Assembly: GCA_964348825.1 (NCBI GenBank)
Contig: CAYGDX010000001.1
Coordinates: forward strand, 239,463 to 303,462
DNA: 64,000 nt
Reading direction: 5' to 3'
From: an uncultured Gammaproteobacteria bacterium
Lineage (GTDB): Bacteria; Patescibacteriota; Patescibacteriia; Veblenbacterales; UBA10138
Within the stretch, counting starts at the first letter, position 1. The number at the start of each line of letters is the position of its first letter. The position numbers and the translations under genes are program-made. Under the pieces are notes generated by a model. That model saw only the letters and a list, made by a program, of their open reading frames with translations, searched no databases and was not told where the DNA came from. Below, piece after piece: positions 11,980 through 29,863 of this stretch.

Positions 11980-12055
11980 TGGATGGTATTGTATAGATTG
12001 AAATTTTAATAGTAGTTTTTTGTAAACTAGTGTCTATCCGATACTAGTTTTTTAG

Positions 12056-12084
12056 TTGACAGAATCGAAAATCTGTGCTAATAT
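12056..12084 (+). promoter_or_regulatory. Near-consensus sigma70-type promoter of the giant ORF (TTGACA-17 bp-TAATAT)
   Basis: TTGACA at 12056..12061, a 17-nt spacer, then TAATAT at 12079..12084. This lies about 75 nt upstream of the ATG at 12158. Confidence 0.7.
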
Positions 12085-12157
12085 ATAGATAACGATACAG
12101 TATCGGATAATATATCGGATACAAAATCGCCTAAAATAAACAAAAAAACAAAAATAT

Positions 12158-15100
12158 ATGAATCCAGTTGAACCTGGGAGTGTTGTAAAATCAACTTCCC
12201 AAGACAACTTAATAAGTACGCCTTCTGACCAAGAATTAATTTCTTTGGCTGAGGCCGCAAAGCTTACCCCATATAGTCAGGAGTATATTTCACTCTTGGC
12301 TAGACGGGGTAAGCTTTTAGCTTGGAAAAAAGGACGCAACTGGTGTACGACTCGCGAGGCGGTACAAAGTTATCTTGATAAACAAACTAAAGATGCTGCC
12401 GAAAAATTAGAACGTCATCAAGTTGTATTAGAATCATCTAAACCAGAAATCAAAGAAGTTAAACCCGGGATTATTTTGTCTCCAGAACAATTACTCCCAG
12501 TTGCAGAAATAAAAGTAGCAACTCCAATTGTTTCAGAAATTAAAGTTAGTCCCGAAATAAAACCAGAAGTGCCTGTGGTTATCCCAGTTGAAAAAGTTGC
12601 TACAGCAGAAAGTTCAGCGGTGCTTGCGGCGCGAGAAATTGCGAATGTGCTCGGAGAAACTTTGGGTGCTAGGTTTGATAGTATCAAACAAGAATTAAAA
12701 CAAGTGAACGAACAAGTAAGTAGATCAGTGCCGGCTTATGCTACACCAGTTCCGTCAGCGGTAGTTGTTAAACAAAATAAAATAAAATCGCACTGGTTTT
12801 ATTTGGCATTATTTTTAATTGCGGTGCCAGTAATTATTTTTAGTTTAACGCAAGGGTTGGCCGAAGATGCGCCAGGCAAACTTTTGGCGTCACTAAAAAA
12901 TGCTTGGACACTTGATGGCCACCGTGCTGGCACCGAAGCCAATGAAGTTTTAATTTTAAATGAAGCTGGAAATATTTCTATCAAAGGTCATATTGAAACT
13001 CAAGGTCAACTTCGCTCGTACGCGCGCGACGGCATCGCGCCAATCGTAGTTGACTCAACAACTAAAATTGAAAAATTAAATGCCGATGCAATTGATGGCT
13101 ATTCTAGTGAGCAATTTAATTTAGCCTTCATCACTAAGCAAGGTAATGTAACGAGTGATGATGTTTACTTAAAAGGTAAGGTAGAAGTTGGACAAATTTT
13201 AGAAGTGAAAGGAGCTACCAAACTTTTGGATGAGTTATTAGTTGGCGGAGGTTTAGGTGTGTGGGGTAAATCTTTTTTTCATAACGATGTGGCAGTGGAT
13301 GGTAAAGTTGATGTTAGTAAATCGCTGGCTGTAAAAAAAGATATTACCGCGGGTGGCAATGTAGTCGCTCAAAATAAAGTAGTGGCAGAAAAAGGTTTGG
13401 AAACTGGTGGTGATATAGTGACCAACAACAATGATATATTTTTGGGTAGCGGTACAATTATTAAAGAAGGTAAAGAATTAATTAAAAATTTAAATGCGGA
13501 GTATTGGAATGGGCAAGCCGCTTCAGATTTTAATTTGGATATGATTACCGACAACGGTGCGGTAACTGATAACCAAATTACTGTGGGTGGAATTAATTCT
13601 ACTGGTACATCTCGCTTCACTGGTCGCACTGAATTACTTGGTGAGACAGTAATTGGTAATTTAGAATCATTAACAGTAAACGGTAAAACTAATTTAAGAA
13701 ATACAGATGTTTCAGGAACTTTGGCGGTGGCTGGTCATGGTTTGTTTTCCAGTTTAGGTGTAGCGGGTAGTGCCGGCGTAATAAATTTATCTTCTAAAGA
13801 ATTTTCTACCACCAACGCTTCAATTGGTGGTAGCTCTAGTAATACTTTGGCGGTAGCGGCTTCATCAACTTTTTCTGGACCAATTAGTGCATCAAATAGT
13901 GTGAGTTTAACTTCAGCTACACCAGCTATTTCAACTAGCGCTGGTGATTTGGTTTTACAATCAAAAGGCGCAACGACTACCGCGAATGTACAAATTGGTG
14001 TGGGTGGCGATGGTTCAACTACGCCTGATCTTTTAGTGCTTGATGTAAAATCTGACGCTACTGATCCAACCGGTACCGATGGCGCAATGTACTACAATAC
14101 TTCAACTGATAAATTCCGTTGTTATGAAAATGCCGCTTGGACTGATTGTGTAGGTGCGGGTGGTGGCGGAGGCTCGACTTTGCAAGCCGCTTACGTTTCC
14201 GGTAATACAATAAGCACCACCACCGATGATGGTGATTTAGCTGTTACTTTGGCCGACACTACTACTGATCGAAATTTTACTGTGACAATTGCCGATGGTG
14301 CGACTGGCACGGTTTCTATTTCTCGAGCCGATGGTGCGGGCACAAGTGACCCATCTCAACTTTTGTTACTTGATAATTTAGATACTAATCGTTCTATAGC
14401 TGATGGTCTTAAAATTCAATCGGCCGCTGGTTTAATAGTTGACGGTATTGATGTATCAGATGCGGAACTTACCAATGCTCTTAATGTTGGTGATAATATT
14501 ATCGCCGGCACCACGGCTGAAATTAATTTTAGTAATTTTGATTTGGCAACTTCCGGTAATATTCAAGTGGCGGCGGGAGTGGGGCTTGATACTAATGGCG
14601 CCGGCAGTTTAACGCTCGGTGTTTCAAACGCCACCACGATTGATATCGCTGGTGGATCTTCTTCCACTGGCTGTACTATTACGAATGCGACTGGTAGTTT
14701 AGTATGTTCCGGAATAAATAGCACTCCAGTTGGGGCAACGTCACCAAGCACTGGTGCTTTTACAACTTTATCGTCAACTGGCGCTACTACTTTAGGAAAT
14801 AATTCTTCAACTGTTGCGGTTGATACTACATCTTGGGATATTTCTTCAGCCGGTGCAATTTCTGGTTTAACAGGATTAACTGTTGCTTCAGGTACGGTTT
14901 CATTGCCTAATGGACAAATCGATAATTCTGAATTAGCTAATTCAACTATTACTTTTGCTGGCGACACTGGTTCTTCAACTACCGCCTTAGGCGCAACTCG
15001 TACGATTGCTGGTGGTGGTGGTTTGACTTCAGCTGATAATAGTTCAGGAACTTTAACTTTAGCAGTTGGAGCTGGCACCGGTATTACTGTTAATGCTGAT

Positions 15101-18100
15101 GATTTAGCTGTTAATCAATCAACTGCTTTTGCTTGGACTGGTCAACAATCTTGGACTGCTACAGTTACAGCCACTGGCGCTTTAGGAGATTTTAATCCGA
15201 CTTTGGGCAATGATACAGATGTTGATACAGTAGCCGGCATTCAAATTGATGCTACTTCAGCTGCCACTGGCGACGCTGATAATTTTTATGGTTTAAATAT
15301 TACTTTGGCTTCAGCCGATGCGACAGTCAATGAGCGAGCAATTGAAATTGGTTCAGGTTGGGATTCAGCTTTATCTGTTGGCGGCTCTTCAATTATTAAT
15401 GGTTCAGGTGTTTTACAATCCGCTGGACTTTCTGGTACTTATTCAAATGCCTTAACTTTATCATCAGCTACTAATTCTATTACCGCTGGCACTTTAATTG
15501 TGGGAGCGGATACTGTAACTGATTTAACTGGTACAGGACTTCAAGTAGTGGCCAATGCTTTGCAAGCTACTTTGGGTACAGATATTACTTCATCTGAAAT
15601 TGCTGATGATAGTATTATGAATGTAGATATTAATTCAGCGGCCGCAATTGCTTTTTCCAAATTAGCCGCGCTGACCTCCGGCAACATTTTAGTGGGCAAC
15701 GGTTCTAATGTAGCAACTAGTGTAGCGATGAGCGGTGATGTGTTAATTTCCAATGCGGGTTTAACAACTATCCAACCTGATGCAGTGGTTTTGGCGACTG
15801 ATACTTCAGGCAGTTATATTGCTACCATTGCCGGAAGCACTCAAGTTGGCGTATCTGGTTCAGGTTTAGAAAATGCGGCAGTATCACTCTCTATTAATAA
15901 TGATTCAATTGGCGATACTCAATTAGCTTTTGATACAGGTCAAACTTTAACTACTACCGCTACGCCACAGTTTGCGCGACTTGGTGTGGGGGTAGCGGCC
16001 GACGCAACTAATATTTTAACTGCCACTTCTACTTCAACTACTGATTTAAGTAAGGTCTTAAATATTTCTCACACTGGCGCCATTACTGGCACTGGTTATG
16101 CTAGTTATTTTTCTAAAACTGGGGCATCCACCACTAATGTTGGTTTATATTCAACTGCTTCGGGTGCTAGTAATAATTACGCCGCGGTTTTTGAGGCGGG
16201 CAATGTTGGTATTGGTGATACAACTCCCAGTTCAAAATTAGAAATTGGCGATGGCACAGATTCATTACAAATTTCAACAGTTGGTGATTTAACTTTTGTG
16301 GATGCTGACGGCGCGGCTTCAATTACTGGTCCAGCCGGCGGCGCTTTAACTATCGCTAGTGGCGCTTCGCAGGCTTTAACTTTAACTGGTAACGCCGCTT
16401 CTATTTGGGATATTGGTGCTAATGTTTTATCTTTGCAAACTACTAACAATGGTGCGATTACTACTGGCACTGGACTTTTAACTTCGGGTGGTAATATAAC
16501 TTTTTCTGGAACTTCTGCGCGCACAATCACTGGACCAAATACTGGCGCCGCCGCGGCCTTAACTTTAACTACCACTGGCAATGGTTCAGGATTAAAATTA
16601 ACTAGCGCGGCTGGGGCCTCTGGCAATTCAGGCGCCATTACTTTGCAAAGTGGTGATACTGCTACTTCCGGAACTTCAGGTGCTATCACAATTGATTCTG
16701 GTGCTGGTGTAACTGCGAATGGTGTGATTACTATTGGTACGACCAACGCACCAACTACTACAATTGGTGGTTGTACTTTTGATCGTGTGGCTGGCAGTAT
16801 GAGTTGTTCGGGAGCAGTTGGTGGTGGTACTGGTACACAAGGTTATTGGAATCGTAGTGGTACAACTTTAAGTCCAGCTACTGCTGGTGATTCTGTTTCA
16901 ACTTCCGGTGCAATTTCTACCACTGGTACTGGCGCTGTTACTTCAGCTGGTACTTTAACTGCTTCAGCCGATTTCACTGCCAATGGTAATGTTCAATTGG
17001 GTGACAACACGGCTGATACTTTAACGATTTATCCAACCGCTTGGACTGCCACGCCAACTATTTCCGGACTTATCACAGCTACTTCTGGAATAACGTCTAA
17101 TGGTACGGCGACTTTTAATACTAACACTAATTTTACTCTAGCTGGTGCTGAAAATGTTTCTCTCACTAACACTACCGCTTCGGCTGATCAATTATCACTC
17201 GCTGTTTCCGGTGTGACCACTGATGCAGTGGATGGTTTAGCTATTGCCTTTACCCAAGCTGACGATGCTGATGCCGCTGATACTAATGCCGCACTTAATA
17301 TTAGTTTAACTTCTTCTTCCACTGACGCTGATACTTTGTATGGTATCAACTTGTCTAACATCACAGCTGGTACAGCAAATGAATACGCCATCAATATTGG
17401 TACAGGTTATGATCGAGGTATTAACTTAGGCGCTAACTCAATTGTTGGTTCAACTGGTATTATTGATTACACTAATTTTGATGTTGATGCTTCTGGCAAT
17501 GTTACTGTTGCCGGCGACTTGGCTGTTAATGGTGGCAATGTTAACTTTGGTGCTACCACTACAATTGGTGATGGTGGCGATGCTTTAACTATTGATTCTA
17601 ATGGAACTTTAACTATTAGTGACGCTACTGTTACTGGTTCCGGCGCTTTAACAGTTACACCAGCTGCGGCGTCCGCTTTGACTTTAGGTACCACTGGTGT
17701 GGGCAACACTACTTCTATTACTTTAGCCACTGACTCAACTGGTGATGCTGAAGTGGTTTTGCCAACTGGTTCGGTTTCTGGTACAGAAATTTTAGATGAC
17801 ACAGTTGTCCTCACTACTGACACAGCTGGTGATTATGTGGCTTCAATTACCGCTGGCGGTGGTTTAACCGGTACAACTTCAGGTGAAGGTTCAACTCCAA
17901 CTCTGGCGGTTGGTGCTGGCACTGGTATTACAGTTAATGCTGATGACGTGGCAATCAATCAAGACACTTCTTTTACTTGGACTAATTCTCACGCCTTTAC
18001 TCTAGCTGGTGCTGAAAATGTTTCTCTCACTAACACTACCGCTTCGGCTGATCAATTATCACTCGCTGTTTCCGGTGTGACCACTGATGCAGTGGATGGT

Positions 18101-24100: not shown

Positions 24101-27100
24101 GCTAATGATTCTGATTTTACTGTGACTACTGCTTCAGGTAGTACCAGTGAAACAAAAATTATTTTAGCTGATGGTGTTGGTACAGTATCGCCAACAGAAT
24201 TGTTATTAATTAATAACGCGGATACTTCAGGCAATACTTTGGCTAATGGTATTACCGTTAGTTCCGCTGGTTCAGCCATCACCACAGGTATTAATTTAAC
24301 TGATGCGGATTTAGTAAATGCAATTAGTGTAGATGCCAATACTATTTTAGGCACCACTGGTGATATAAATTTTACAAATTTTGATGTTACAGGTTCAAGT
24401 GGTGATGTTGTAACCGGAGGTGATGTGGCAGTGAATGGTGGAGACATTACTGGCGCCACCACTATGAATGTTTTTAATACTTCAACCCTCATTAATTTAG
24501 CCGATTCCGCAATTACTGGCACGATTGATATTGGTGGGGTAACGGCCGATGGTGCAACTACCATTAATGTGGCCACTCATTCAACTTCAGCCGATGTAAT
24601 AACAATAGGTAATTCCAATGCTTCAACTACAGTGGCGATTACTGGTGGTGATGATTGGGCAATGGCCGCCACTGGTGTACTCACTATGTCAGCTTCCGCC
24701 GCCGCTACCACTGCGATAGTTATTACTGATACTGATTATACTAACGCTTTATCTATTGGTGATAATATTATTACCGGTACAACCTATAGTTTAGTTGGCA
24801 CATCGGCAACTATTGATTTTTCCGAATTTGATGTAGCCGCCGCTACCGGCGCTATTACTATCAACGATGATGGGGATGCTGGAAATATTTCTATTGAAGG
24901 CACGGTGCTGGATATTAACTCACTTGATTTTGTCGGCGCGGGCACTTTAACTTCCGCAGCGACTACGAATTTAACTTTTACTCCTGGTACCACTGGTGAT
25001 TTAGTATTTTCCACCGATGCTGACACCACCGCCACCTTTAGTGGTTCAGCTGAAGGTACAGCTAATGTTATTTTAACGGCTGGTGATTTAACTTTGACCG
25101 ATGGTGATTTAACATTATCAGGTGGTGAAATAGCTGCGACTTCAGATGATGCCACTGGTACAAATTTTAATTTTACTACTGGCGCATTAACTTCTGGTAC
25201 AGGTTTGGCAGTGGCCACCACTGGTGCTGTGGCTACGGCTTACACTGGCGATGTGATTAATGGTAGTTTTACACAGACCGTAACATCGGGTACGCCATTT
25301 AACAATACTGGCAATGTACTTGACATTTCTCGTGCTTTAACTATTAATCAAGCAGCCGGTGATACAGTCACACAAAGTGGTGCCCTAGTTAGTTTTACTT
25401 CAACTCTAGCGGCCGGTGGTGCGGGAGGTACTTTAGCTGATTCGTCAAATATTTTAGCTTTAGCTCAAAGTTGTGGCGGCGGTTTCTCTTGTACCGGCGC
25501 AGTATTAGGTATTACCAATGCTGGTACAGGTAGCGCTATTGCAATAGGTGCTATGTCAGCAAGTAGCGCCACTACCTCAGTCGCTAGTATTGATATTGGT
25601 GCTATTACTACAACCAACATAACTACTTCTACTGGTTTGAAAATTGGAGCTTTATCTGGTACGGGTACTACTGGTTATGGAATTGATATAGCTGGTATTA
25701 CAAAAACTGGTACTACAGCTACTGCTATTAACATTGGCGCTATGTCAGGCGCTGCCACTACTAACACTGGTATAGCAATTGGCAATCTATCAGCCGGTAC
25801 CACTTCTAATGGTATTACTATCGGAACTAATTCTTCAGCAACTTCAAAAGGTATCACTATCGGAGCAATGACTGGCGCCACTACTAACACTGGTATTGAT
25901 ATTGGCAACATTAGTACTGGTACCACTTCCAAAGGTATTAACATTGGGACTTTAGCTGGCATCAATGGCGGTACTGTCACTGGCATAGCTATCAGCACTA
26001 TGTCTGGTGCCGCTACCACCACTTCGGCTACTAGTATTGATATTGGTGCTATTACTACAACCAACATAACTACTTCTACTGGTTTGAAAATTGGAGCTTT
26101 ATCTGGTACGGGTACTACTGGTTATGGAATTGATATAGCTGGTATTACAAAAACTGGTACTACAGCTACTGCTATTAACATTGGCGCTATGTCAGGCGCT
26201 GCGACAACAAATACTGGGATCGCTATTGGAAATTTATCAGCTGGTACAACTTCCAAAGGTATTACTATTGGTACTAATTCTTCAGTTACCGCCACCGGTC
26301 TAGATATTGGTGCTTTATCTGGCACCACAGCTAATATTGGGGTGAAGGTGGGAGCTATTTCAGGAGCTAGTGGCACAGGAACAGGTCTTGATATTGGAGC
26401 TTTTACTAATACTGGCGCTACTCAATATGGAGTCAATATTGGAGCTTTTTCAGGAACACATGCGGCAGGAGGAGGAACCACTGCTGGAATTAATATTGGG
26501 AATATTTCTTCAGCAGGAACTACTTCATCAAATTATGGAATTCAATTAGGAACAATGACTGGTGGTACCACTGCAAATTATCAAATTAGTACTGGTATCT
26601 TAACTTCAGCTACCACCACAACTAATGCTCAAATTAATTTAGGTGGGGTGGTCACAACCGGTGGTACTACTAATTATGGTATCAATGTGGGGGCACTCTC
26701 TGGCACTGGTACCACTAACTATGGAATAAATGTTGCTGCATTGACATCTGTTGGAACTACAAATTATGGGTTAAATGTTGGTGGCGCGACTGGAGCGGCT
26801 ACTACTAATTATGGCGTGTTTGTTGGTGCAGTAACTGGAGCTTCCACCAATATTAGTTTGGCCTTTGCCAAAGAAAATGCACATACTATTAAAGTTTTAG
26901 ATAGTACAACTGCTGATACTGTAGGCGGTGCCTTAAGTATTACTGCTGGCGCCGCGGCAAATAGTACATCTACCGCTCGAGCTGGTGGGGCTATTACCCT
27001 AACAGCTGGAGCTGGTGCGGCAAATAGTAGCGCTACTACTGGTCAAACAGCCGGTGCGGGTGGAGCACTTAATATTAATACTGGAAATGGTGGTAATGAA

Positions 27101-29863
27101 ACTGGTAATGCAGCCGTTGTTTTAAATGGTGGTGCAGGTGGCGCAATAACAATTGATTTAGGTGACGGAGGATCACCATCTGGTTTAAGTACAGCTGGCT
27201 CAACTGGTAATGGTGGTGTTGGTGGGGCATGGTCATTAACTTCTGGTGCTGGTGGGGCTGTAACTAATGTTAGCAATCTTGTTCCAACTAGAAATGGCGG
27301 TGATAGCGGATCTATAAGTTTAATTACTGCTACTGGTGGTGAAACTAGTTGTTCTGCCTGTTCACCTAACTCAGCACAAACATTTATTGGTGGAGCCGCT
27401 GGGAATATTAATCTTACTGGTGGTACGGGTGGTGCGGCATTTATGTCTTCTGACGCCGGTGGAACACAATCATATACTGGTGGAGATGGCGCTACTATTA
27501 ATATAACAGCAGGAACTGGTGGAGCCGCATCTACTACTTCTGCAGATACAAATGTTGGTGGTGCAGGTGGAGCTCTTTCTTTTTCTGCTGGTGCTGGCGG
27601 AGCCGCTACAAATGGTACTGATACTGGTGGGGCGGGTGGCGACGTCACAATAAATGCCGGTGATGCAGGCAATGGTGATGGGAATGTTGACGGCGGAGAT
27701 GTCACTATTTATGGTGGCAATGCAGATGGCAGTGGTGTTGATGGAGATGTTATCCTTGCCTATACTGGTGCGGCTGTACAAGGAAATGTTGGTATTGGTA
27801 CTAGTACAACAACAATTCAAGCTACTGCAGGTTATGCAGGTCTCCATGTTAATGGATTAGTGAGAATTATAAATCCACAAGGTACAACTACCGCACCTAC
27901 TCTCGCTAACGAAGGTGAACACGCTTTTGCCACTGTTAGTGCTGTTGAACGTATGTATGTTTGGATTAATGGAGCTCGTAGATATTTTAACCGTACCGGT
28001 TCAGCTGACTTTTCAGAATTTGTTATAAAACAAGATGTTGTATCGTCTATTGTACCAGGTGATGTGGTTACTTATTTAGATTCTTCTACACCACGAGCTG
28101 GTATAATATTAGCAACTAACAATAATGGTGGGCGTGTGATGGGTGTGGTTTCAGCTGGTGGTACCCGTTATAATGATGATGAAGGTGAGGGTTTGCGTGG
28201 TGATGATCCAAATTACGCCAACGTTGGTATGCTTGGTCACGTGCCAGTGAAAGTCAATTTAGGAAATGGCCCGATTGTGCCAGGTGATTATTTGGTGCCA
28301 TCATCAACTGCTGGTGTGGCAATGAAATCGCCTAACGAAGCTGGGGTAATGATTGGTTTTGCTATGGAGAGTTACGATGGTAGCGATGCTGATGGTCAAA
28401 TTATGATGTTTGTAAGCCCTGGTTTCTATGATCCAAATGCTAATACATATTTCTCTAAATCTGGTGGTGAAGTATTAGGTAGTATGAAAGTTGTATCTTC
28501 TGGTACGCCGATGGAAATTAATTTAACTGGCTCCACCGATATAAATGCAGTGCGGAATATTTTTGAGGCGAAGTTAAATGGTGAAATGAAATTTCAGATT
28601 TTGGAGACGGGTGATGCAACATTATCTGGTAAGTTGAATGCGGGTTCACTCAAAACAATTGCGCAAGCCGAAATTGGTGGTGATTTGGAATTGTCTGGCG
28701 ATTTCAAAGTTGGTGGTTTAGTACGCTTGGATAGAAATGGTAATTTGAAAAATATTACATCTGTTCAGGTTGTCTCAAGCGTGAATGCGGATGGTAGTAT
28801 CACGCTTGGAACTATTCCATCGACATCAGTTGGTTCGTCTGTATCTATCGCGCAAACTTCCGCTGATCCTATTTCCGCTACACGCGCGGCGTTGGCTTTA
28901 TCTTCGGCTGGTACATCGGCATCTGATTATCTTATTTATTCAGAGCCATTCCAAGTTACTTATGATGGCCGGGTGAAGAGTAAGAGTTTGGAGGTTAAAG
29001 AAAGTGTGTTAGTTGGTGGTGATAATGTTACTTCAGGTAATTTGATTTCGGGTAAAGTAGGGGATAGTTTTAGTGGATTGCTCGTGAAGTTTACAAACAG
29101 TTCAGGTAAATCATTATTCTCAATTGATGGCAGTGGGTTACTGGTGGTGGATGCAGTTAAAACTCGCGCGATTGTGATTGATAATACTGACCAGCCGCGC
29201 GCCACAATTGGTAGTGCGGTGGTACCAGCACAAAGTTTGGTGATCACAGTGACTGCGCCTGAAGTGCGACCTGGTATGAAAATTTTCATCACACCTAAAA
29301 TTGCTATTTCACAATCACTGGCTGTAACAAATATTGAGCAGGGGAGTTTCACAGTTTCCTTGGCTCATCGTTCGGCTTCGGATGTGCCATTTGATTGGTG
29401 GTTGGTTGACGTGACTAATCCATCATTTACAGCTTCATCACAAGTAGTTGATTCTGGTAATGGTGGAAATAGTAATGAGCAGGGGAATGGAGGCAATAGT
29501 GTGTTGCCAACAGATAACACCCAACCGACAACCAACAACACTGTTGAGCCAGTAGCAAGTAATGAGCCAGTAGTTGATTCAACTCAACCAGTGGCGAGTG
29601 GTACGCCAGTTGCGCCAACTACAGTTCAGCCAACTGCTAGTGTTGAGCCAACCTCAACTGAATCACAGCCCGTTGCTTCTACTACCACCGAACCAGCGCC
29701 AACCACTGCTCCCATCACCGTTACCGATTCAACCCCAGTCGCTTCGGTCAGCACACCAAGCGCACCAGAACCAACCCCAAATTCAACTTCAACCACTACT
29801 ACCACCACCGAACCAATTGTAAACAACACTCCCACTGTCCAAGCCAGCATAGTAGCGGAATAA
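12158..29863 (+). CDS. Giant (5,901 aa) repetitive surface protein, built from an N-terminal cytoplasmic excisionase-type HTH (about aa 20-75), a K/E/P/V-rich linker, one TM helix (about aa 212-232), about 5,500 aa of Thr/Gly/Ala/Ser/Asn-rich tail-fibre-like repeats, and a C-terminal Pro/Thr/Ser-rich low-complexity tail
   Basis: A single 17,706-nt open frame. The HTH segment LISLAEAAKLTPYSQEYISLLARRGKLLAWKKGRNWCTTREAVQSYL matches the HTH_17 pattern. The TM segment is HWFYLALFLIAVPVIIFSLT. Recurring unit-ending motifs are AI-x-IGSGWD/AINIGTGYD, LTLTDGDLAVSAGDFNV and LNADAIDG..SEQF. About 16-aa IG/SG solenoid-like repeats occur at aa 4450-4800, Gly-rich GGAGG repeats at aa 4960-5200, and GNVGIGTSTT..LHVNG near the C-terminus. 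Confidence 0.85.
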   Translation: MNPVEPGSVVKSTSQDNLISTPSDQELISLAEAAKLTPYSQEYISLLARRGKLLAWKKGRNWCTTREAVQSYLDKQTKDAAEKLERHQVVLESSKPEIKEVKPGIILSPEQLLPVAEIKVATPIVSEIKVSPEIKPEVPVVIPVEKVATAESSAVLAAREIANVLGETLGARFDSIKQELKQVNEQVSRSVPAYATPVPSAVVVKQNKIKSHWFYLALFLIAVPVIIFSLTQGLAEDAPGKLLASLKNAWTLDGHRAGTEANEVLILNEAGNISIKGHIETQGQLRSYARDGIAPIVVDSTTKIEKLNADAIDGYSSEQFNLAFITKQGNVTSDDVYLKGKVEVGQILEVKGATKLLDELLVGGGLGVWGKSFFHNDVAVDGKVDVSKSLAVKKDITAGGNVVAQNKVVAEKGLETGGDIVTNNNDIFLGSGTIIKEGKELIKNLNAEYWNGQAASDFNLDMITDNGAVTDNQITVGGINSTGTSRFTGRTELLGETVIGNLESLTVNGKTNLRNTDVSGTLAVAGHGLFSSLGVAGSAGVINLSSKEFSTTNASIGGSSSNTLAVAASSTFSGPISASNSVSLTSATPAISTSAGDLVLQSKGATTTANVQIGVGGDGSTTPDLLVLDVKSDATDPTGTDGAMYYNTSTDKFRCYENAAWTDCVGAGGGGGSTLQAAYVSGNTISTTTDDGDLAVTLADTTTDRNFTVTIADGATGTVSISRADGAGTSDPSQLLLLDNLDTNRSIADGLKIQSAAGLIVDGIDVSDAELTNALNVGDNIIAGTTAEINFSNFDLATSGNIQVAAGVGLDTNGAGSLTLGVSNATTIDIAGGSSSTGCTITNATGSLVCSGINSTPVGATSPSTGAFTTLSSTGATTLGNNSSTVAVDTTSWDISSAGAISGLTGLTVASGTVSLPNGQIDNSELANSTITFAGDTGSSTTALGATRTIAGGGGLTSADNSSGTLTLAVGAGTGITVNADDLAVNQSTAFAWTGQQSWTATVTATGALGDFNPTLGNDTDVDTVAGIQIDATSAATGDADNFYGLNITLASADATVNERAIEIGSGWDSALSVGGSSIINGSGVLQSAGLSGTYSNALTLSSATNSITAGTLIVGADTVTDLTGTGLQVVANALQATLGTDITSSEIADDSIMNVDINSAAAIAFSKLAALTSGNILVGNGSNVATSVAMSGDVLISNAGLTTIQPDAVVLATDTSGSYIATIAGSTQVGVSGSGLENAAVSLSINNDSIGDTQLAFDTGQTLTTTATPQFARLGVGVAADATNILTATSTSTTDLSKVLNISHTGAITGTGYASYFSKTGASTTNVGLYSTASGASNNYAAVFEAGNVGIGDTTPSSKLEIGDGTDSLQISTVGDLTFVDADGAASITGPAGGALTIASGASQALTLTGNAASIWDIGANVLSLQTTNNGAITTGTGLLTSGGNITFSGTSARTITGPNTGAAAALTLTTTGNGSGLKLTSAAGASGNSGAITLQSGDTATSGTSGAITIDSGAGVTANGVITIGTTNAPTTTIGGCTFDRVAGSMSCSGAVGGGTGTQGYWNRSGTTLSPATAGDSVSTSGAISTTGTGAVTSAGTLTASADFTANGNVQLGDNTADTLTIYPTAWTATPTISGLITATSGITSNGTATFNTNTNFTLAGAENVSLTNTTASADQLSLAVSGVTTDAVDGLAIAFTQADDADAADTNAALNISLTSSSTDADTLYGINLSNITAGTANEYAINIGTGYDRGINLGANSIVGSTGIIDYTNFDVDASGNVTVAGDLAVNGGNVNFGATTTIGDGGDALTIDSNGTLTISDATVTGSGALTVTPAAASALTLGTTGVGNTTSITLATDSTGDAEVVLPTGSVSGTEILDDTVVLTTDTAGDYVASITAGGGLTGTTSGEGSTPTLAVGAGTGITVNADDVAINQDTSFTWTNSHAFTLAGAENVSLTNTTASADQLSLAVSGVTTDAVDGLAIAFTQADDADAADTNAALNISLTSSSTDADTLYGINLSNITAGTANEYAINIGTGYDRGINLGANSIVGSTGIIDYTNFDVDASGNVDALGTLTAGSANEVLTLSTGKIDADAITLAASGTTGSTSSRSGLQTSSDGLTLLMGCADGQLLEWTDASGWACAADDTGSSGASVEEGDSAAVAALSVLDFLAADFVVSESPANEANVSIDYPNSGITRKAQAETISGGWTFNTAATTFTTAINANGGITTTTADQNLAFSANGGGDFVFNVDSGTFVSITGTADGESALTIAAGNLTLTDGDLAVSAGDFNVNLDDGDTVNIDGDATPTADLLKLGNGDTSATDDVDALQITFATSGASGNLIDLSPTFADSDAGNSAETWNAVNVNAFTVTQNDSGGAITGVVNGFNLGNLTESPTGDDAITSTAIKLGTGWDYIFDTAGFDVLGATGATTITGSGDGTDALTLTAGDILVTNGDLDLSGGDFNVILDAGDGVNITKGAAPTVDVFSINGSTSTTDGVDGLQLTFGVSAASGNVIDITPSYTDATAGATSETYNIIDVDAFTATQNATGDTGLINGLAIGALTQTETAGALTAYALNIGSGWDSVLRVNGTEVVDASGNVPVARINGTLFTVQGDNAAGRAITQGNTLTIAGGTNLTSVDADTDTVTINLDDSITLAGDLTVQGQNVNFDNATDIDIDDNTASSFTISEGANNYFLITTTNDSEVVTLNLPAGGATSLTGNLFTSDIVKTINIGTGTAADTINLGTGTTNPDAINIGTTDTVAHVIRIGDNTGASSSDIAIADAQWSITTAGLITTADNLAVNGGDITTTATDPNIFNTGTISTIDIGATVTGNITFSNGSGSSGCTIDGSGNLACAGTITGSTSGAQGYWTRTSTTLSPTNAGDSIDMPSGTGVFTQTYAPAGTTVAATGATFIPTFGVHADNQTLVGVAINPVTNSNDDTGDILNALSIGTINATLASERAIYIGTSYDTDLVFGDTTPVVTFGDGGNLTFTDGTNTLLTLTDGGTVGNLSVSGDVTTTGDVAINGGNLNFGAATTIGDGGDTIAFSLKDNSADALDVQQSTNNYININTSDGNENIALSTLRQTGGDAISLLGDSITTGTAVGVSADVITTGVALDISSISTVASSADLIQVDHTATYVTTVANSGNLLDLSRALTTNTGGALTNSGAVATITSNCTQTAGTCTDTANILSLTQSYASASGAVIKTSNAGTGVDIELDNAETIDNSVNGTINLGTTTFKLTGGTTIVSDQATVALLDSTTTTINFGSAATAVNLADAAITGTIDIGGVTADGASTINIATNSTSSDTLVIGNSNASTLVTLTGGDDWSISNTGVLTLDGTTLDINSLDFVGAGTFTSGAATNLTLTPGTTGDLVFSTDADTTATFSGSADGTANVILTAGDLTLTDGDLAVSAGDFNVTLDAGDGVTITKNAVPTVDIFTISNTGQGITTTDGVDSLALTYVQATNAAAVAGSALDISVTQSGDASDTIRGININNITGGSSTETALSIGSGWDTDLAFVDTSPTVTIGGGGTITFTDGTNTLFSIADAGTTGNATTTGNLAVSGGDITTGAATFNFVAGTTTLNLAGGSGSTGCTVDGSGNLTCTGAITGSASGAQGYWTRTDNILTATNANDILSLPSNDADSPVLNLASSAITANGTASLNQAVTVSSSAAGVTAYGYKLALTNNPSTNANTLYGEYISFTDAGSLANTVTGLYVDATTANASDTTYSGVFTGGNFGIGDTSPAALLTVGSGDLFQVDSSGNVTAVDLAVNGGDITGATTMNVFNTSTTINLADAAITGTIDIGGVSTNGTTTVNIATEGTSADVITIGNSNASSTVAITGGNDWSIAANGNFVTLGTLTAGSGAEVITLSTGKIDADAISLMTATNGVGTTSTASGLEVVSDKLSLLQGCTDAYILKWEEDTDTWDCAADATGGGAGSLQGAYDGTNTITTSDNRDIAFTLADTNLTNTTPDANDSDFTVTTASGSTSETKIILADGVGTVSPTELLLINNADTSGNTLANGITVSSAGSAITTGINLTDADLVNAISVDANTILGTTGDINFTNFDVTGSSGDVVTGGDVAVNGGDITGATTMNVFNTSTLINLADSAITGTIDIGGVTADGATTINVATHSTSADVITIGNSNASTTVAITGGDDWAMAATGVLTMSASAAATTAIVITDTDYTNALSIGDNIITGTTYSLVGTSATIDFSEFDVAAATGAITINDDGDAGNISIEGTVLDINSLDFVGAGTLTSAATTNLTFTPGTTGDLVFSTDADTTATFSGSAEGTANVILTAGDLTLTDGDLTLSGGEIAATSDDATGTNFNFTTGALTSGTGLAVATTGAVATAYTGDVINGSFTQTVTSGTPFNNTGNVLDISRALTINQAAGDTVTQSGALVSFTSTLAAGGAGGTLADSSNILALAQSCGGGFSCTGAVLGITNAGTGSAIAIGAMSASSATTSVASIDIGAITTTNITTSTGLKIGALSGTGTTGYGIDIAGITKTGTTATAINIGAMSGAATTNTGIAIGNLSAGTTSNGITIGTNSSATSKGITIGAMTGATTNTGIDIGNISTGTTSKGINIGTLAGINGGTVTGIAISTMSGAATTTSATSIDIGAITTTNITTSTGLKIGALSGTGTTGYGIDIAGITKTGTTATAINIGAMSGAATTNTGIAIGNLSAGTTSKGITIGTNSSVTATGLDIGALSGTTANIGVKVGAISGASGTGTGLDIGAFTNTGATQYGVNIGAFSGTHAAGGGTTAGINIGNISSAGTTSSNYGIQLGTMTGGTTANYQISTGILTSATTTTNAQINLGGVVTTGGTTNYGINVGALSGTGTTNYGINVAALTSVGTTNYGLNVGGATGAATTNYGVFVGAVTGASTNISLAFAKENAHTIKVLDSTTADTVGGALSITAGAAANSTSTARAGGAITLTAGAGAANSSATTGQTAGAGGALNINTGNGGNETGNAAVVLNGGAGGAITIDLGDGGSPSGLSTAGSTGNGGVGGAWSLTSGAGGAVTNVSNLVPTRNGGDSGSISLITATGGETSCSACSPNSAQTFIGGAAGNINLTGGTGGAAFMSSDAGGTQSYTGGDGATINITAGTGGAASTTSADTNVGGAGGALSFSAGAGGAATNGTDTGGAGGDVTINAGDAGNGDGNVDGGDVTIYGGNADGSGVDGDVILAYTGAAVQGNVGIGTSTTTIQATAGYAGLHVNGLVRIINPQGTTTAPTLANEGEHAFATVSAVERMYVWINGARRYFNRTGSADFSEFVIKQDVVSSIVPGDVVTYLDSSTPRAGIILATNNNGGRVMGVVSAGGTRYNDDEGEGLRGDDPNYANVGMLGHVPVKVNLGNGPIVPGDYLVPSSTAGVAMKSPNEAGVMIGFAMESYDGSDADGQIMMFVSPGFYDPNANTYFSKSGGEVLGSMKVVSSGTPMEINLTGSTDINAVRNIFEAKLNGEMKFQILETGDATLSGKLNAGSLKTIAQAEIGGDLELSGDFKVGGLVRLDRNGNLKNITSVQVVSSVNADGSITLGTIPSTSVGSSVSIAQTSADPISATRAALALSSAGTSASDYLIYSEPFQVTYDGRVKSKSLEVKESVLVGGDNVTSGNLISGKVGDSFSGLLVKFTNSSGKSLFSIDGSGLLVVDAVKTRAIVIDNTDQPRATIGSAVVPAQSLVITVTAPEVRPGMKIFITPKIAISQSLAVTNIEQGSFTVSLAHRSASDVPFDWWLVDVTNPSFTASSQVVDSGNGGNSNEQGNGGNSVLPTDNTQPTTNNTVEPVASNEPVVDSTQPVASGTPVAPTTVQPTASVEPTSTESQPVASTTTEPAPTTAPITVTDSTPVASVSTPSAPEPTPNSTSTTTTTTEPIVNNTPTVQASIVAE
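17132..17503 (+). repeat. Intragenic direct repeat copy A (372 bp, apparently nucleotide-identical to 17996..18367; 864-bp period)
   Basis: The protein segment FTLAGAENVSLTNT...FDVDASGNV is duplicated exactly. The antisense ORFs 17188..17394 and 18052..18258 translate identically. Confidence 0.85.
17996..18367 (+). repeat. Intragenic direct repeat copy B
   Basis: See copy A. Confidence 0.85.
25586..25757 (+). repeat. Intragenic direct repeat (about 172 bp identical, then diverging; 447-bp period), copy A
   Basis: AGTATTGATATTGGTGCTATTACTACAACCAACATAACTACT...GCTATGTCAGGCGCTGC recurs at 26033. Confidence 0.8.
26033..26204 (+). repeat. Intragenic direct repeat, copy B
   Basis: See copy A. Confidence 0.8.

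What the first reader, a model, noticed from the sequence alone, without database searches (positions are those of the whole stretch)
12158..29863. 17.7-kb single ORF encoding a 5,901-aa membrane-anchored, tail-fibre-like repetitive surface protein
One uninterrupted frame occupies 28% of the window. The protein has an N-terminal excisionase-type HTH (aa about 20-75), a K/E/P/V-rich linker, and one TM helix (HWFYLALFLIAVPVIIFSLT). About 5,500 extracellular residues dominated by T/G/A/S/N/D/I follow. Modular units end in recurring motifs: AIxIGSGWD/AINIGTGYD, LTLTDGDLAVSAGDFNV(N/T)LD and GNVGIGDTTP/GNVGIGTSTT. Two LNADAIDG..SEQF-type motifs sit at nt about 13070 and about 13484. Cys-pair motifs CYENAAWTDC, LEWTDASGWACAAD and LKWEEDTDTWDCAAD recur. 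There is a 16-aa IG/SG solenoid repeat block, a GGAGG glycine-rich block and a Pro/Thr-rich C-terminal tail. These patterns resemble phage tail-fibre and adhesin beta-solenoids. In a reduced-genome organism that may be host-associated, this is a prime candidate host- or surface-attachment structure. Its domain combination (cytoplasmic DNA-binding-type HTH plus a giant fibre) is not a described family as far as I can tell.
Basis: partly seen in the sequence, partly recalled or inferred. Interest (0 to 1): 0.8.

Follow-up and report, generated by a model that had tools for sequence, protein, structure and literature searches.

The report
Giant membrane-anchored fibre with DNA-binding head
The 17.7-kb gene is real and belongs to a large, unnamed family of ultra-small (Patescibacteria) bacteria: a giant surface protein with a DNA-binding-type domain inside the cell, a phage-tailspike-like folding domain near its outer end, and a conserved palindrome in front of nearly every copy of the gene.

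Summary
There is one ATG-to-stop frame at 12158-29863 (5,901 aa) with one TM helix, and all the quoted motifs are present. The gene lies among housekeeping genes of a Patescibacteria genome.

It belongs to a large, unnamed family. 116 representative proteins match at E<=1e-30, and members range from about 1,500 aa to 7,920 aa. 89 stretches in species-representative genomes encode a relative.

The shared architecture is:
- an N-terminal HTH_17 domain, predicted cytoplasmic;
- one TM helix;
- a highly conserved ecto module;
- a variable mosaic region;
- a domain homologous to the self-cleaving intramolecular chaperone of the phage phi29 gp12 tailspike (family profile vs PDB 3gqh, E=1.6e-6);
- a conserved C-terminal extension and a P/T tail.

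The chaperone homology is what supports the "tail-fibre-like" reading, not the quoted motifs. A beta-solenoid is shown only weakly, for aa ~335-440.

New finding: a palindrome, TATCCGATA-NNN-TATCGGATA, lies upstream of the gene. A pair of its core heptamers is present in 61 of 80 related genome loci. Half of all exact metagenome occurrences (52 of 103) precede a family gene.

My best reading is a membrane-anchored, probably trimeric surface fibre whose own HTH binds this element. Host attachment, trimer formation, cleavage and DNA binding are all inferred, not shown.

The parts
11850..11869 (+). Two distal near-copies of the 9-mer (AATCCGATA, TATCCGATG), 11 nt apart
   Evidence: 5 of the 6 ATCCGAT/ATCGGAT heptamers in the 64-kb window lie in 11851-12120.
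12024..12050 (+). Terminator-like hairpin after the YceG gene. It contains one exact TATCCGATA (12035-12043) and lies just upstream of the -35.
12056..12084 (+). Promoter-like site TTGACA-17-TAATAT (10 of 12 matches, TG before the -10)
   Evidence: The same TTGACA...-10 arrangement precedes the element in L004 and L002. This is a consensus match only.
12089..12121 (+). Conserved leader element: three 9-mers at 12-nt phasing (ATAACGATA, TATCGGATA, TATCGGATA). It is the window's version of the family-wide palindrome TATCCGATA-NNN-TATCGGATA.
12158..29863 (+). The giant ORF: 5,901 codons plus stop
12239..12385 (+). HTH_17 / excisionase-type helix-turn-helix, aa 28-76, predicted cytoplasmic
   Evidence: Invariant motif: YSQEY.SLLAR.GK....K.GRNW.
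12386..12793 (+). V/E/K/A/S/P-rich linker, aa 77-212. It varies in length and sequence among relatives.
12794..12850 (+). Single TM helix (signal anchor, N-in), aa 213-231
12890..13150 (+). Family-defining conserved ecto module, aa 245-331 (TLDGH.AGT.ANEVL.LNEAGNISI.GHIETQGQLRS...G.APIVVDS.TK.E.LNAD)
   Evidence: It was poorly modelled as a monomer.
13160..13477 (+). Hexapeptide-period segment, aa ~335-440, modelled as a beta-helix
   Evidence: Hydrophobic period 6/12/18/24. AF2 places 3-residue strands every 6 residues, pLDDT 58-73. Only weak beta-solenoid fold hits and a weak left-handed beta-helix sequence hit, E 0.09.
13595..25474 (+). Mosaic of diverged repeat modules, aa ~480-4439. Examples: a ~108-aa unit ending in IGSGWD (7 copies) and LTLTDGDL units (4 copies). 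Most of the Cys pairs lie here.
17132..17503 (+). 372-nt exact direct repeat, copy 1. Copy 2 is at 17996-18367.
25475..26857 (+). Block of 15-residue repeats (xGIxIGxxxGxxTxx), aa 4440-4900
26858..27907 (+). Gly/Ala/Thr-rich block, aa 4901-5250 (G 24%)
   Evidence: Unmodelled: pLDDT ~30.
27977..28438 (+). Domain homologous to the phi29 gp12 C-terminal intramolecular chaperone (Peptidase_G2 type), aa 5274-5427. D5284 (nt 28007-28009) and E5287 align with gp12 D692 and E695.
28439..29407 (+). Conserved C-terminal extension, aa 5428-5750. It ends in a small beta-sandwich (aa ~5684-5750, pLDDT 65-85).
   Evidence: 53-62% identical in the four close relatives. Modelling. A 71-92 column fold match to tailspike C-terminal domains, which I assign to the beta-sandwich by inference; the output does not give query coordinates.
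29408..29860 (+). Thr/Pro/Ser/Val-rich C-terminal tail, aa 5751-5901

Best explanation
The gene encodes a giant, N-terminally membrane-anchored surface fibre of a Patescibacteria bacterium. It is one member of a large, unnamed protein family.

Shown:
- The first ~80 residues form an HTH_17-type domain.
- A variable linker and one signal-anchor helix follow.
- The remaining ~5,670 residues are predicted to lie outside the cell.
- These start with a highly conserved module and a short beta-helical segment, and continue as a fast-evolving mosaic of Thr/Gly/Ala/Ser-rich repeat modules.
- Near the distal end sits a domain homologous to the self-cleaving intramolecular chaperone of the phage phi29 tailspike gp12.
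- A near-perfect palindrome, TATCCGATA-NNN-TATCGGATA, accompanies the gene throughout the family. It usually lies just downstream of a -10-like box.

Inferred:
- The N terminus stays in the cytoplasm, by the positive-inside rule.
- As in phi29 gp12, the chaperone-like domain brings three chains into register, so the ectodomain folds into a trimeric fibre. It may then cut itself off at about A5283|D5284.
- The three membrane-tethered HTH domains of each fibre bind the palindrome in the gene's own leader. Finished, inserted protein would then feed back on the synthesis of a very costly product, or hold its gene at the membrane during co-translational export.
- The fibre mediates contact with host cells or surfaces.
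For: The gene is real:
- One frame, 5,901 aa.
- A Logan assembly is 100% identical over 10744-17161.

It belongs to a family:
- An exhaustive search with aa 1-480 gave 116 representatives at E<=1e-30. Lengths reach 7,920, 6,605, 6,480, 6,452, 5,746 and 5,120 aa.
- My HMM scan finds HTH, then TM, then the ecto module in nearly all of them.
- The IMC-like domain is found in 12 proteins of 1,516-6,605 aa, ending roughly 180-690 aa before the C terminus.
- One member lies on a 615-kb Paceibacterota contig.
- L002 carries the same N and C termini on one scaffold.
- 89 stretches in species-representative genomes encode a relative. The 80 loci kept are nearly all labelled as Patescibacteria lineages.

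Topology:
- One TM helix.
- Net charge is +2.9 before the TM and +0.16 after it, averaged over 102 family proteins.

HTH:
- 10 of 11 family segments hit PF12728, best E 1.1e-8.

IMC-like domain:
- A 36-sequence profile hits PDB 3gqh (the gp12 C-terminal fragment) at E 1.6e-6 and full-length gp12 residues 690-827 at E 6.3e-5. The alignment starts at the first residue of the crystallised fragment, DFAEYF.
- PF11962 matches 11 of 36 members, best E 5.5e-7.
- D and E of the A-D-x-[AS]-E motif are conserved in at least 90% of sequences.
- Foldseek on the weak AF2 model still ranks 3suc second and 3gqh_A third (TMt 0.55).
- The gp12 C-terminal domain is needed for trimer folding and is cleaved off afterwards (PMC3357383).

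Palindrome:
- The heptamers occur within 350 nt upstream of the start codon in 68 of 72 loci, mostly as pairs 12 nt apart.
- There are 64 dyads in 61 loci within 449 kb. My own estimate of the chance expectation is about 0.1.
- In the window, 5 of 6 heptamers lie in 11851-12120.
- 52 of 103 exact metagenome hits have the family HTH 25-370 nt downstream.
- Changes inside the 9-mers are one-sided in 52 cases and two-sided in 5, as expected for a protein-recognised sequence.
- Flanking genes differ in the three orthologous loci I compared, so the HTH is the only DNA-binding-type domain I saw travelling with the element.
Against: - No part of the ~4,800-aa repetitive region matches any family or solved structure.
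- Both AF2 models are poor, with mean pLDDT 44 and 51. The fibre fold and the trimer are therefore inferred only from the chaperone homology.
- The window sequence alone does not hit PF11962.
- The chaperone-like domain is not C-terminal here: about 475 residues follow it, and they are the best-conserved part among close relatives. That sits uneasily with simple release of a spent chaperone.
- From my own knowledge, phi29 gp12 cleavage is reported to need ATP, which is not available outside the cell.
- Binding of the HTH to the palindrome is not shown. All 78 informative genome loci carry the HTH, so there is no HTH-less control.
- The element would also fold as an RNA hairpin. The pair just outside the 9-mers covaries.
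- 7 exact metagenome copies lie near small soluble HTH_17 genes instead.
- The HTH profile has no relative among solved structures at E<=1.
- Nothing here tests host attachment.
Confidence: 0.6

Rival explanations
1. The protein is the same giant surface protein, but the conserved palindrome acts as RNA. It would form a stem-loop at or near the 5' end of the 17.7-kb mRNA that stabilises the message or controls its translation. The HTH would then do something else, for example bind a cytoplasmic partner as the RodZ HTH binds MreB, or bind DNA elsewhere.
For: - The element folds well. The window's 12086-12130 gives -11.6 kcal/mol (z -4.7), with the stem starting close to the predicted transcription start. 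L077 gives -14.8 and L023 -15.1.
- The position just outside the 9-mers is Watson-Crick paired in 53 of 111 unique elements against 26% expected, using all four pair types. No shuffle out of 20,000 reached this.
- 16 of 111 elements have at least 3 further consecutive pairs.
- By inference, a message this long would benefit from 5' protection.
Against: - The stem sequence itself is nearly invariant across distant lineages.
- Within the 9-mers only 2 of 57 changes are compensatory.
- There is no G.U over A.C bias at the outer pair (9 vs 15) and only a weak one inside (14 vs 6).
- The window's clade has a G.G mismatch in the middle of the stem but keeps the 9-mer sequence and the 12-nt phasing.
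- No Rfam family matches.
Confidence: 0.25
2. The palindrome is the operator of a separate, soluble regulator encoded elsewhere in the genome, for example a small HTH_17 protein. The N-terminal HTH of the giant protein would be a degenerate or protein-binding domain.
For: - 7 of 103 exact metagenome copies lie 300-400 nt from genes for 71-74-aa soluble HTH_17 proteins.
- A winged-helix/PaaX-like gene lies directly downstream of the giant gene in the window.
Against: - No neighbouring regulator is shared by the window, L002 and L004.
- The element occurs only at this gene in the 64-kb window.
- Half of all exact occurrences in metagenomes precede the family HTH.
- The family HTH motif is invariant, matching the invariance of the site.
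Confidence: 0.15
3. The long frame is an assembly artefact. Repeats would have been collapsed, expanded or mis-joined, or the gene would really be several genes.
For: - There is a 372-nt exact repeat.
- A short-read assembly breaks exactly there.
- Relatives are mostly fragments at contig ends, or gapped scaffolds such as L002 with two 100-N gaps.
Against: - The frame stays open for 17.7 kb, and no opposite-strand ORF within it exceeds 220 aa.
- The first 5 kb are confirmed base for base.
- Many independent assemblies give 3,500-7,920-aa relatives with the same N-terminal architecture. 12 of them also carry the same C-terminal domain.
- Only the copy number and order of repeat modules remain uncertain.
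Confidence: 0.07
4. It is a phage, prophage or tailocin tail fibre rather than a cellular surface protein.
For: - Homology to the phi29 gp12 auto-chaperone.
- Fold matches to phage tail proteins and tailspike C-terminal domains.
Against: - The neighbours are housekeeping genes: iPGM, Fpg, H+-PPase, ManC, YceG and ribosomal protein L10.
- tblastn of the C-terminal 490 aa finds no phage record.
- There is no tail-fibre PHROG hit.
- An N-terminal cytoplasmic HTH plus a signal anchor does not fit a virion protein.
- The gene sits in different chromosomal contexts in many species.
Confidence: 0.03

Closest known systems
Phage phi29 gp12 pre-neck appendage (tailspike) and its C-terminal auto-chaperone (Pfam PF11962 Peptidase_G2; PDB 3gqh, 3suc, 6qz9)
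   Same: - A homologous ~150-aa domain, supported by profile E 1.6e-6, by PF11962 hits in 11 of 36 members and by a fold match.
- The conserved D...E motif aligns with the start of the released gp12 fragment.
- The domain lies distal to a long beta-rich region.
   Different: - The protein is cellular, not part of a virion.
- It is about 7 times longer.
- Its N terminus is anchored in the membrane by a TM helix and carries an HTH.
- About 475 conserved residues follow the domain instead of it being the C terminus.
- The domain works outside the cell, without ATP.
- Cleavage and trimer formation are untested.
Giant membrane and surface proteins of CPR/Patescibacteria (the ten longest proteins of Vampirococcus lugosii, 1,392-4,163 aa; PMC8080830)
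   Same: - The same kind of organism.
- Very large, membrane-associated proteins proposed to form surface fibres and to attach to hosts.
   Different: - Those proteins carry recognisable adhesion domains (WD40, PKD, integrin, fibronectin, DUF11).
- This family has none of them.
- It has instead the HTH, the conserved ecto module, the chaperone-like domain and a dedicated leader palindrome.
Membrane-tethered one-component regulators (ToxR, CadC, TcpP) and RodZ (my own knowledge, not tested here)
   Same: An N-terminal cytoplasmic HTH-type domain, a single TM helix and an extracytoplasmic C-terminal part.
   Different: - The DNA-binding domain is of the HTH_17/excisionase type, not OmpR-type or XRE-type.
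- The outer part is a 5,670-aa structural fibre rather than a small sensor domain.
- DNA binding is unproven.
Eukaryotic MyRF (membrane transcription factor with a phage-type intramolecular chaperone autocleavage domain; PMC8326128)
   Same: One polypeptide combines a DNA-binding domain, a TM helix and a phage-tailspike-derived trimerising, self-cleaving chaperone domain.
   Different: - In MyRF the order is DNA-binding domain, chaperone domain, TM, so cleavage frees the DNA-binding domain.
- Here the order is HTH, TM, fibre, chaperone-like domain, so cleavage could not free the HTH.
- The MyRF domain is the endosialidase (S74, Ser-Lys) type, not the gp12 (G2) type.
Giant genes of Omnitrophota (Archaeovorins and Dockerin-type; bioRxiv 10.1101/2023.11.21.568195)
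   Same: Very long genes in ultra-small bacteria. They are mostly extracellular, break assemblies, and are proposed to act in attachment.
   Different: - Those proteins have many TM helices, SecA-DEAD domains and carbohydrate-active domains.
- This protein has one TM helix and none of those domains.
GhpA grappling-hook protein of Aureispira (5,898 aa; PDB 9flp)
   Same: - Similar size.
- An extracellular fibre used in cell-cell contact.
- A weak profile hit, E 0.008-0.03.
   Different: - The hit covers a ~40-residue motif repeated in GhpA's domains.
- There is no evidence of homology across the whole protein.

Membership tests
HTH_17 / excisionase-family DNA-binding domain (PF12728, TIGR01764) | Sequence match to the family profile at or above the curated cut-off | tested here: inconclusive
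   Window tile: 19.9 bits against 27. TIGR01764: 22.8 against 28.8. Isolated domain: 26.9 against 27, E 5.9e-6. 10 of 11 family members match, best E 1.1e-8. Four homologues carry PF12728 in the precomputed table. So the feature is met at family level and borderline for the window sequence.
HTH_17 / excisionase-family DNA-binding domain (PF12728, TIGR01764) | Binds DNA | not testable with these tools
   The only support is an indirect association with a conserved palindrome.
Peptidase_G2 / phi29 gp12 intramolecular chaperone domain (PF11962) | Sequence homology to the gp12 C-terminal domain | tested here: met
   The family profile hits 3gqh at E 1.6e-6 and 6qz9 at 6.3e-5. PF11962 matches 11 of 36 members. 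Three profile hits carry PF11962. The window sequence alone gives no Pfam hit.
Peptidase_G2 / phi29 gp12 intramolecular chaperone domain (PF11962) | Conserved acidic residues at the cleavage site (gp12 S691|D692...E695) | tested here: met
   The window has A5283-D5284-F-S-E5287. D and E are conserved in at least 90% of the 36 aligned domains. The alignment begins at residue 1 of the released fragment.
Peptidase_G2 / phi29 gp12 intramolecular chaperone domain (PF11962) | Domain forms the extreme C terminus of the precursor | tested here: not met
   About 475 residues follow it in the window. In the 12 long relatives the domain ends roughly 180-690 aa before the C terminus. In many short homologues it is C-terminal.
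Peptidase_G2 / phi29 gp12 intramolecular chaperone domain (PF11962) | Similar three-dimensional fold | tested here: inconclusive
   Foldseek ranks 3suc second (E 6.6e-4) and 3gqh_A third (TMt 0.55). However, the model is weak: mean pLDDT 44, and 60-85 in the sub-domain.
Peptidase_G2 / phi29 gp12 intramolecular chaperone domain (PF11962) | Drives trimer assembly and cleaves itself off | not testable with these tools
   No multimer prediction or experiment was available. The function in gp12 is taken from PMC3357383.
Phage tail fibre or tailspike as a virion component | Encoded among phage structural genes; matches tail-fibre families | tested here: not met
   The neighbours are housekeeping genes. 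There is no tail-fibre PHROG or Pfam hit and no tblastn hit in 50,697 phage records.
Beta-solenoid / beta-helix fibre | Regular short-period strands stacked into a solenoid | tested here: inconclusive
   aa ~335-440 shows period 6 and a beta-helix model with pLDDT 58-73, but fold hits are at E >= 0.04. aa 4440-4900 has period 15. The rest was not modelled.
ToxR/CadC-type membrane-bound transcription regulators | OmpR-type winged-helix DNA-binding domain, single TM, periplasmic sensor domain | tested here: not met
   The topology is analogous. The domain type is HTH_17, and the outer part is a 5,670-aa repetitive region.
MyRF-type membrane transcription factors | [quoted passage not shown] | tested here: not met
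   The order here is HTH, TM, fibre, G2-type domain. There is no Peptidase_S74 hit.
Omnitrophota giant proteins (Archaeovorin or Dockerin type) | Many TM helices, SecA-DEAD domain, dockerin and carbohydrate-active domains | tested here: not met
   There is one TM helix and no such Pfam domain.
The HTH-TM-ecto-module giant protein family of Patescibacteria (unnamed; defined here) | N-terminal HTH motif YSQEY.SLLAR.GK, a TM helix ~35 aa before the ecto module GT.ANEVL...GHIETQGQLRS...PIVVDS...LNAD, and the upstream TATCCGATA-type element | tested here: met
   All three features are present in the window. 76 of 80 genome loci have the HTH and the ecto module in one ORF. 61 of 80 have the strict dyad.

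The most novel reading that the evidence does not exclude
A structural surface fibre acts as its own transcription factor. Each finished, membrane-inserted giant protein presents HTH domains to the cytoplasm (three if the protein is a trimer). These bind a dedicated palindrome in the leader of its own gene. The cell would thereby count its fibres, or tether the gene to the membrane during the many minutes needed to make and export a 5,900-aa chain. The fibre itself would be assembled outside the cell by a domesticated phage-tailspike auto-chaperone. A further possibility is that load or host contact on the fibre is relayed to the HTH.
Probability: 0.35. Interest if true: 0.85.

Novelty: new variant of a known kind. 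Interest (0 to 1): 0.72.

Why it matters
Patescibacteria make up a large share of bacterial diversity. Cultivated members live attached to other cells, yet apart from type IV pili the molecules that make contact are largely unknown.

What this family offers:
- It is widespread in the Parcubacteria/Paceibacteria branch.
- It takes up a large stretch of DNA in a genome thought to be under 1 Mb. The source contig is 0.2-1 Mb.
- It has clear handles for experiments: an invariant HTH, an invariant ecto module, a phage-derived chaperone-like domain with a predicted cleavage site, and an 18-base specified DNA element.

What it would mean if the self-binding reading holds:
- It would be a simple way for a cell to meter a giant structural protein.
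- It would be a bacterial counterpart to eukaryotic MyRF, which also joins a DNA-binding domain, a TM helix and a phage chaperone domain.

A practical use that holds either way: the palindrome together with the N-terminal motif is a cheap marker for finding these genes, which usually break short-read assemblies.

Tried and rejected
- Family scans of six overlapping tiles (Pfam, NCBIfam, PHROGs) found only the sub-threshold HTH.
- PDB sequence searches found nothing useful with the N-terminal 800 aa, the C-terminal 701 aa, the repeat-module profile A7 or the HTH profile A9.
- AF2 of aa 5130-5760 with a 10-sequence alignment gave mean pLDDT 44. AF2 of aa 230-640 with 23 sequences gave 51. The conserved ecto module and the Gly-rich block stayed unmodelled.
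- The fold search of the N-terminal ecto model gave only generic beta-solenoid hits at E >= 0.04. The BFVD hits to tail proteins have very large rmsd, so I count them only as weak support.
- tblastn of the C-terminal 490 aa against phage records found no match.
- Rfam found nothing at the leader.
- Literature searches for the family, for the 9-mer and for giant CPR proteins found only general statements. The original gp12 paper could not be retrieved.
- Tandem Repeats Finder found almost nothing, because the modules are too diverged.
- A diversity-generating retroelement target: considered but not pursued.
- S-layer protein: considered but left open. No SLH or other S-layer domain appears in the Pfam scan, and there is no positive evidence either way.
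- Horizontal transfer as the reason for the higher GC of the ORF (0.41-0.45 against 0.34-0.38 in the flanks): I attribute this instead to the Gly/Ala/Thr-rich composition. That is an inference.
- An HTH-less control for the palindrome does not exist among the loci. The two loci without an HTH hit are truncated at the locus start.

Full report
**1. The observation**

The window contains one uninterrupted frame from ATG 12158 to the stop at 29861-29863. It encodes 5,901 aa. No opposite-strand ORF within it exceeds 220 aa.

The protein is 15.8% Thr, 13.4% Gly, 12.2% Ala and 9.8% Ser. It has 531 Asp+Glu against 156 Lys+Arg.

It has one strong hydrophobic segment, aa 213-231 (Kyte-Doolittle 2.31). 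It has 21 cysteines: one in the HTH and ten close pairs.

There are two corrections:
- The repeat block at aa 4440-4900 has a dominant period of 15, not 16.
- The gene holds a 372-nt exact in-frame direct repeat, 17132-17503 = 17996-18367.

The ORF is richer in G+C (0.41-0.45) than its flanks (0.34-0.38). I attribute this to its Gly/Ala/Thr codon content, which is an inference.

**2. Is the gene real?**

A Logan assembly of run ERR3094292 is 100% identical to window 10744-17161. It ends 30 nt into the first copy of the exact repeat. That is what a k-mer assembler does at a true repeat. The run may come from the same sample as the window.

The same look-up shows that the source contig is 0.2-1 Mb long.

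The neighbouring genes are housekeeping genes: iPGM, Fpg, PAP2, H+-pyrophosphatase, ManC and YceG upstream, and a PaaX/Cas2-like winged-helix protein and ribosomal protein L10 downstream.

The strongest argument against an artefact is the family described next. Many independent assemblies give proteins of the same build and similar size.

**3. The family**

First searches:
- A search with aa 1-350 found 23 relatives. Nearly all were fragments at contig ends and labelled Patescibacteria.
- The alignment shows an invariant HTH motif (YSQEY.SLLAR.GK....K.GRNW), a linker of variable length and sequence, a TM helix, and a very conserved ecto module.

Exhaustive search with aa 1-480:
- 116 representatives at E<=1e-30 and 308 at E<=1e-10.
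- Lengths include 7,920, 6,605, 6,480, 6,452, 5,746, 5,120 and 4,789 aa.

HMM scan of these proteins with models of the three conserved parts:
- HTH, then TM, then the ecto module, occur in nearly all of them.
- The C-terminal domain discussed below occurs in 12 proteins of 1,516-6,605 aa, ending roughly 180-690 aa before the C terminus.
- I assume that most of the others are truncated at contig ends.

Sources name the members only as 'hypothetical' or 'helix-turn-helix domain-containing'. The organisms named are Paceibacterota, Zambryskibacteria and the Patescibacteria group.

A scan of species-representative genomes found 89 stretches encoding a relative, and 80 loci were kept. They carry labels such as Yanofsky-, Kerfeld-, Veblen-, Nealson-, Ryan-, Taylor- and Tagabacteria, Paceibacterota and Parcubacteria. 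A few records carry other labels, including Gammaproteobacteria, Omnitrophota and Bacteroidota.

In 76 of the 80 loci the HTH and the ecto module lie in one ORF.

In L002 (a Veblenbacteria MAG) the same N terminus and C terminus lie on one scaffold, separated by two 100-N gaps.

Flanking genes differ between the window, L002 and L004.

**4. Topology**

There is no N-terminal signal peptide. The 15 residues before the TM helix carry three Lys, and those after it carry Glu and Asp.

Across 102 family proteins the mean net charge is +2.9 before the TM and +0.16 after it. The charge is higher before than after in 87% of them.

By the positive-inside rule the HTH is cytoplasmic and about 5,670 residues are outside the cell.

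**5. The HTH**

In the 1,000-aa tile the match is below threshold in Pfam, NCBIfam and PHROGs. As an isolated domain it scores 26.9 bits against a cut-off of 27. 10 of 11 family segments hit HTH_17, with a best E of 1.1e-8.

The assignment therefore holds at family level. The HTH profile finds no solved relative at E<=1.

**6. The ectodomain**

Self-comparison shows that aa ~480-5250 is a mosaic of diverged modules that recur in different orders. Examples are a ~108-aa unit ending in IGSGWD (7 copies) and an LTLTDGDL unit (4 copies).

No tile and no module profile matches a known family or a solved structure.

aa ~335-440 shows:
- a hydrophobic period of 6;
- an AF2 model as a regular beta-helix at pLDDT 58-73;
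- only weak, generic beta-solenoid fold hits;
- a weak left-handed beta-helix sequence hit, E 0.09.

The conserved ecto module and the Gly-rich block stayed at pLDDT 30-45 as monomers. This would fit an obligate oligomer, but equally just shallow alignments.

**7. The phage link**

The region after aa 5250 is not repetitive.

Its close relatives are four Patescibacteria fragments, 53-62% identical. One of them (P0033) comes from the same MAG as an N-terminal fragment (P0003).

Five distant proteins share only a ~150-aa sub-domain, window aa 5274-5427.

Evidence for homology with phi29 gp12:
- An 8-sequence profile of the sub-domain gave PDB 3gqh, the C-terminal fragment of phage phi29 gp12, as top hit at E 0.023.
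- After collecting 59 more homologues, a 36-sequence profile gave 3gqh at E 1.6e-6, full-length gp12 (6qz9, residues 690-827) at 6.3e-5, and 3suc at 2.4e-4.
- Pfam PF11962 (Peptidase_G2, 'IMC autoproteolytic cleavage domain') matches 11 of the 36 members, best E 5.5e-7.
- The alignment begins at residue 1 of the crystallised fragment, DFAEYF, which is residue 692 of gp12.
- The corresponding window residues are A5283-D5284-F-S-E5287. This D and E are conserved in at least 90% of the aligned domains.
- Foldseek with the weak AF2 model still ranks 3suc second and 3gqh_A third (TMt 0.55). Phage cement proteins are also among the hits.

Further 71-92-column matches go to C-terminal domains of tailspikes (Pam1, Sf6) and phage depolymerases. 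I assign these to the small beta-sandwich at aa ~5684-5750. That is an inference, because the output gives no query coordinates.

In gp12 this domain is needed for trimer folding and is cut off afterwards (PMC3357383).

Differences from gp12:
- The window sequence alone does not hit PF11962.
- About 475 residues follow the domain, and they are well conserved in close relatives.
- The domain would act outside the cell.
- No phage record matches by tblastn.

**8. A conserved palindrome in front of the gene**

In the window:
- The intergenic region holds a promoter-like site, TTGACA-17-TAATAT, at 12056-12084.
- Three 9-mers follow at 12-nt phasing: ATAACGATA, TATCGGATA and TATCGGATA, at 12089-12121.
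- The 64-kb window has six ATCCGAT/ATCGGAT heptamers, about the number expected by chance (~8). Five of them lie in 11851-12120.
- The exact 9-mer occurs only at 12035, 12101 and 12113.

In orthologous loci:
- The same arrangement follows the promoter in L004 and L002.

Across the genome loci:
- The heptamers occur within 350 nt upstream of the start codon in 68 of 72 loci, nearly always as a pair 12 nt apart.
- There are 64 dyads in 61 loci within 449 kb. My estimate of the chance expectation is about 0.1.
- The consensus is TATCCGATA-NNN-TATCGGATA.
- A TATAAT-like hexamer (at least 5 of 6 matches) lies within 80 nt upstream of the dyad in 55 of 61 loci, against 21 of 61 control windows.

In metagenomes:
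- A scan for the exact palindrome gave 103 hits.
- 52 of them have the family HTH 25-370 nt downstream.
- 7 lie 300-400 nt from small soluble HTH_17 genes.
- The rest are unrelated sequences or lack a recognisable family gene on the contig.

No Rfam family matches the element, and I found no paper on it.

**9. DNA site or RNA hairpin?**

For an RNA hairpin:
- The element folds well: window -11.6 kcal/mol (z -4.7), L077 -14.8, L023 -15.1.
- The pair just outside the 9-mers is Watson-Crick in 53 of 111 unique elements, against 26% expected, with all four pair types. No shuffle out of 20,000 reached this.
- 16 of 111 elements have at least 3 further consecutive pairs.

For a protein-recognised sequence:
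- The 9-mers are nearly invariant across distant lineages.
- Within them, changes are one-sided in 52 cases and two-sided in 5, of which 2 are compensatory.
- There is no G.U bias at the outer pair (9 against 15 A.C).
- The window's clade keeps the 9-mer sequence and the phasing although the central pair becomes G.G.

I favour a DNA site, but the question is open.

The natural candidate binder is the family's own HTH. Its motif is invariant, and it is the only DNA-binding-type domain I saw travelling with the element. All 78 informative genome loci carry the HTH, so there is no natural control.

**10. Best explanation and its limits**

Shown:
- The gene and its family.
- The order of the domains.
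- The predicted topology.
- The homology of one domain with the gp12 auto-chaperone.
- The association of the palindrome with the gene.

Inferred:
- Trimeric fibre assembly driven by the chaperone-like domain.
- Possible self-cleavage at A5283|D5284.
- Binding of the HTH to the palindrome, as feedback or as tethering of the gene to the membrane.
- A role in contact with hosts or surfaces.

The last point rests only on analogy with giant membrane proteins of the CPR bacterium Vampirococcus (PMC8080830) and on the lifestyle of cultivated Patescibacteria.

**11. Comparison with what is known**

| Known system | What is shared | What differs |
|---|---|---|
| phi29 gp12 | One homologous domain and, probably, the assembly logic | The protein is not a virion protein |
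| ToxR/CadC and RodZ (my own knowledge) | The topology | A different HTH class and a huge structural outer part |
| MyRF (PMC8326128) | A DNA-binding domain, a TM helix and a phage chaperone domain in one chain | A different domain order and a different chaperone family, so cleavage could not free the HTH |
| Omnitrophota giant proteins | Very long genes in ultra-small bacteria | They have many TM helices and SecA-DEAD domains |

**12. Verdict**

- The protein is a new variant of known kinds: giant surface fibres and membrane-tethered HTH proteins.
- It belongs to a large family for which I found no description.
- The conserved, dedicated palindrome is the most surprising result and can be tested directly.

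Noticed in passing
window 17132-17503 and 17996-18367: A 372-nt exact, in-frame direct repeat (124 aa) with 864-nt spacing. It is either a very recent duplication or gene conversion, or a spot where the module count could be mis-assembled. A short-read Logan contig ends 30 nt into copy 1.
   Followed up: partly
window 12024-12050: A terminator-like hairpin after the YceG gene (11-bp stem followed by a T-run). Its loop and stem contain one exact TATCCGATA 9-mer, directly upstream of the giant gene's -35 box.
   Followed up: partly
window 11933-11972: An inverted repeat with 12-nt arms (AGAGCACCAATT / AAATGGTGCTCT, 16 nt apart) in the YceG-giant intergenic region. Its function is unknown.
   Followed up: no
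L102, L128, L141, L157, L167, L177, L181 (metagenome loci): The same exact palindrome lies 300-400 nt from genes for small (71-74 aa) soluble HTH_17 proteins (MPKKFLTV..VARL.GVSPLT.RNWD.KG.L.AYRNP.NNYR.YK). The element may serve more than one HTH_17 family.
   Followed up: partly
window 29967-30509: The gene directly downstream encodes a 180-aa protein with a winged-helix region (DUF6293_C) and a PaaX_M/Cas2-like domain. It is a possible regulator, but it is not conserved next to orthologues.
   Followed up: partly
window 31876-34002 (- strand): A 708-aa ORF with no Pfam hit, on the opposite strand to most genes of the window.
   Followed up: no
PDB 9flp, hit by profiles A4 and A6: A weak hit (E 0.008-0.03) of the chaperone-like domain profile to a ~40-residue motif repeated in GhpA, the 5,898-aa grappling-hook protein of the predatory bacterium Aureispira. 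This is probably a shared short motif (NGPI..GD.L..SS) rather than homology.
   Followed up: no
L003 (ERZ1286166 contig_4645, 105 kb): An error-prone assembly in which rpoC and the family gene are split into many short ORFs. It shows that gene callers can hide these giant genes as strings of small 'hypothetical' proteins.
   Followed up: no
P0037, P0038 and window aa 640-664: The motif GT[DN]GAMYYN...[KT]FRCY[EQ]N.AW..C, with its Cys pair, recurs in otherwise different Patescibacteria/Microgenomates proteins that also carry the chaperone-like domain. It may mark a separate small module.
   Followed up: no
window 43858-57179: Four tRNA genes (Glu-CTC, Gly-CCC, Thr-CGT, Gln-TTG). Almost all genes lie on the + strand and GC skew is steadily positive, as expected for one replichore.
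   Followed up: no
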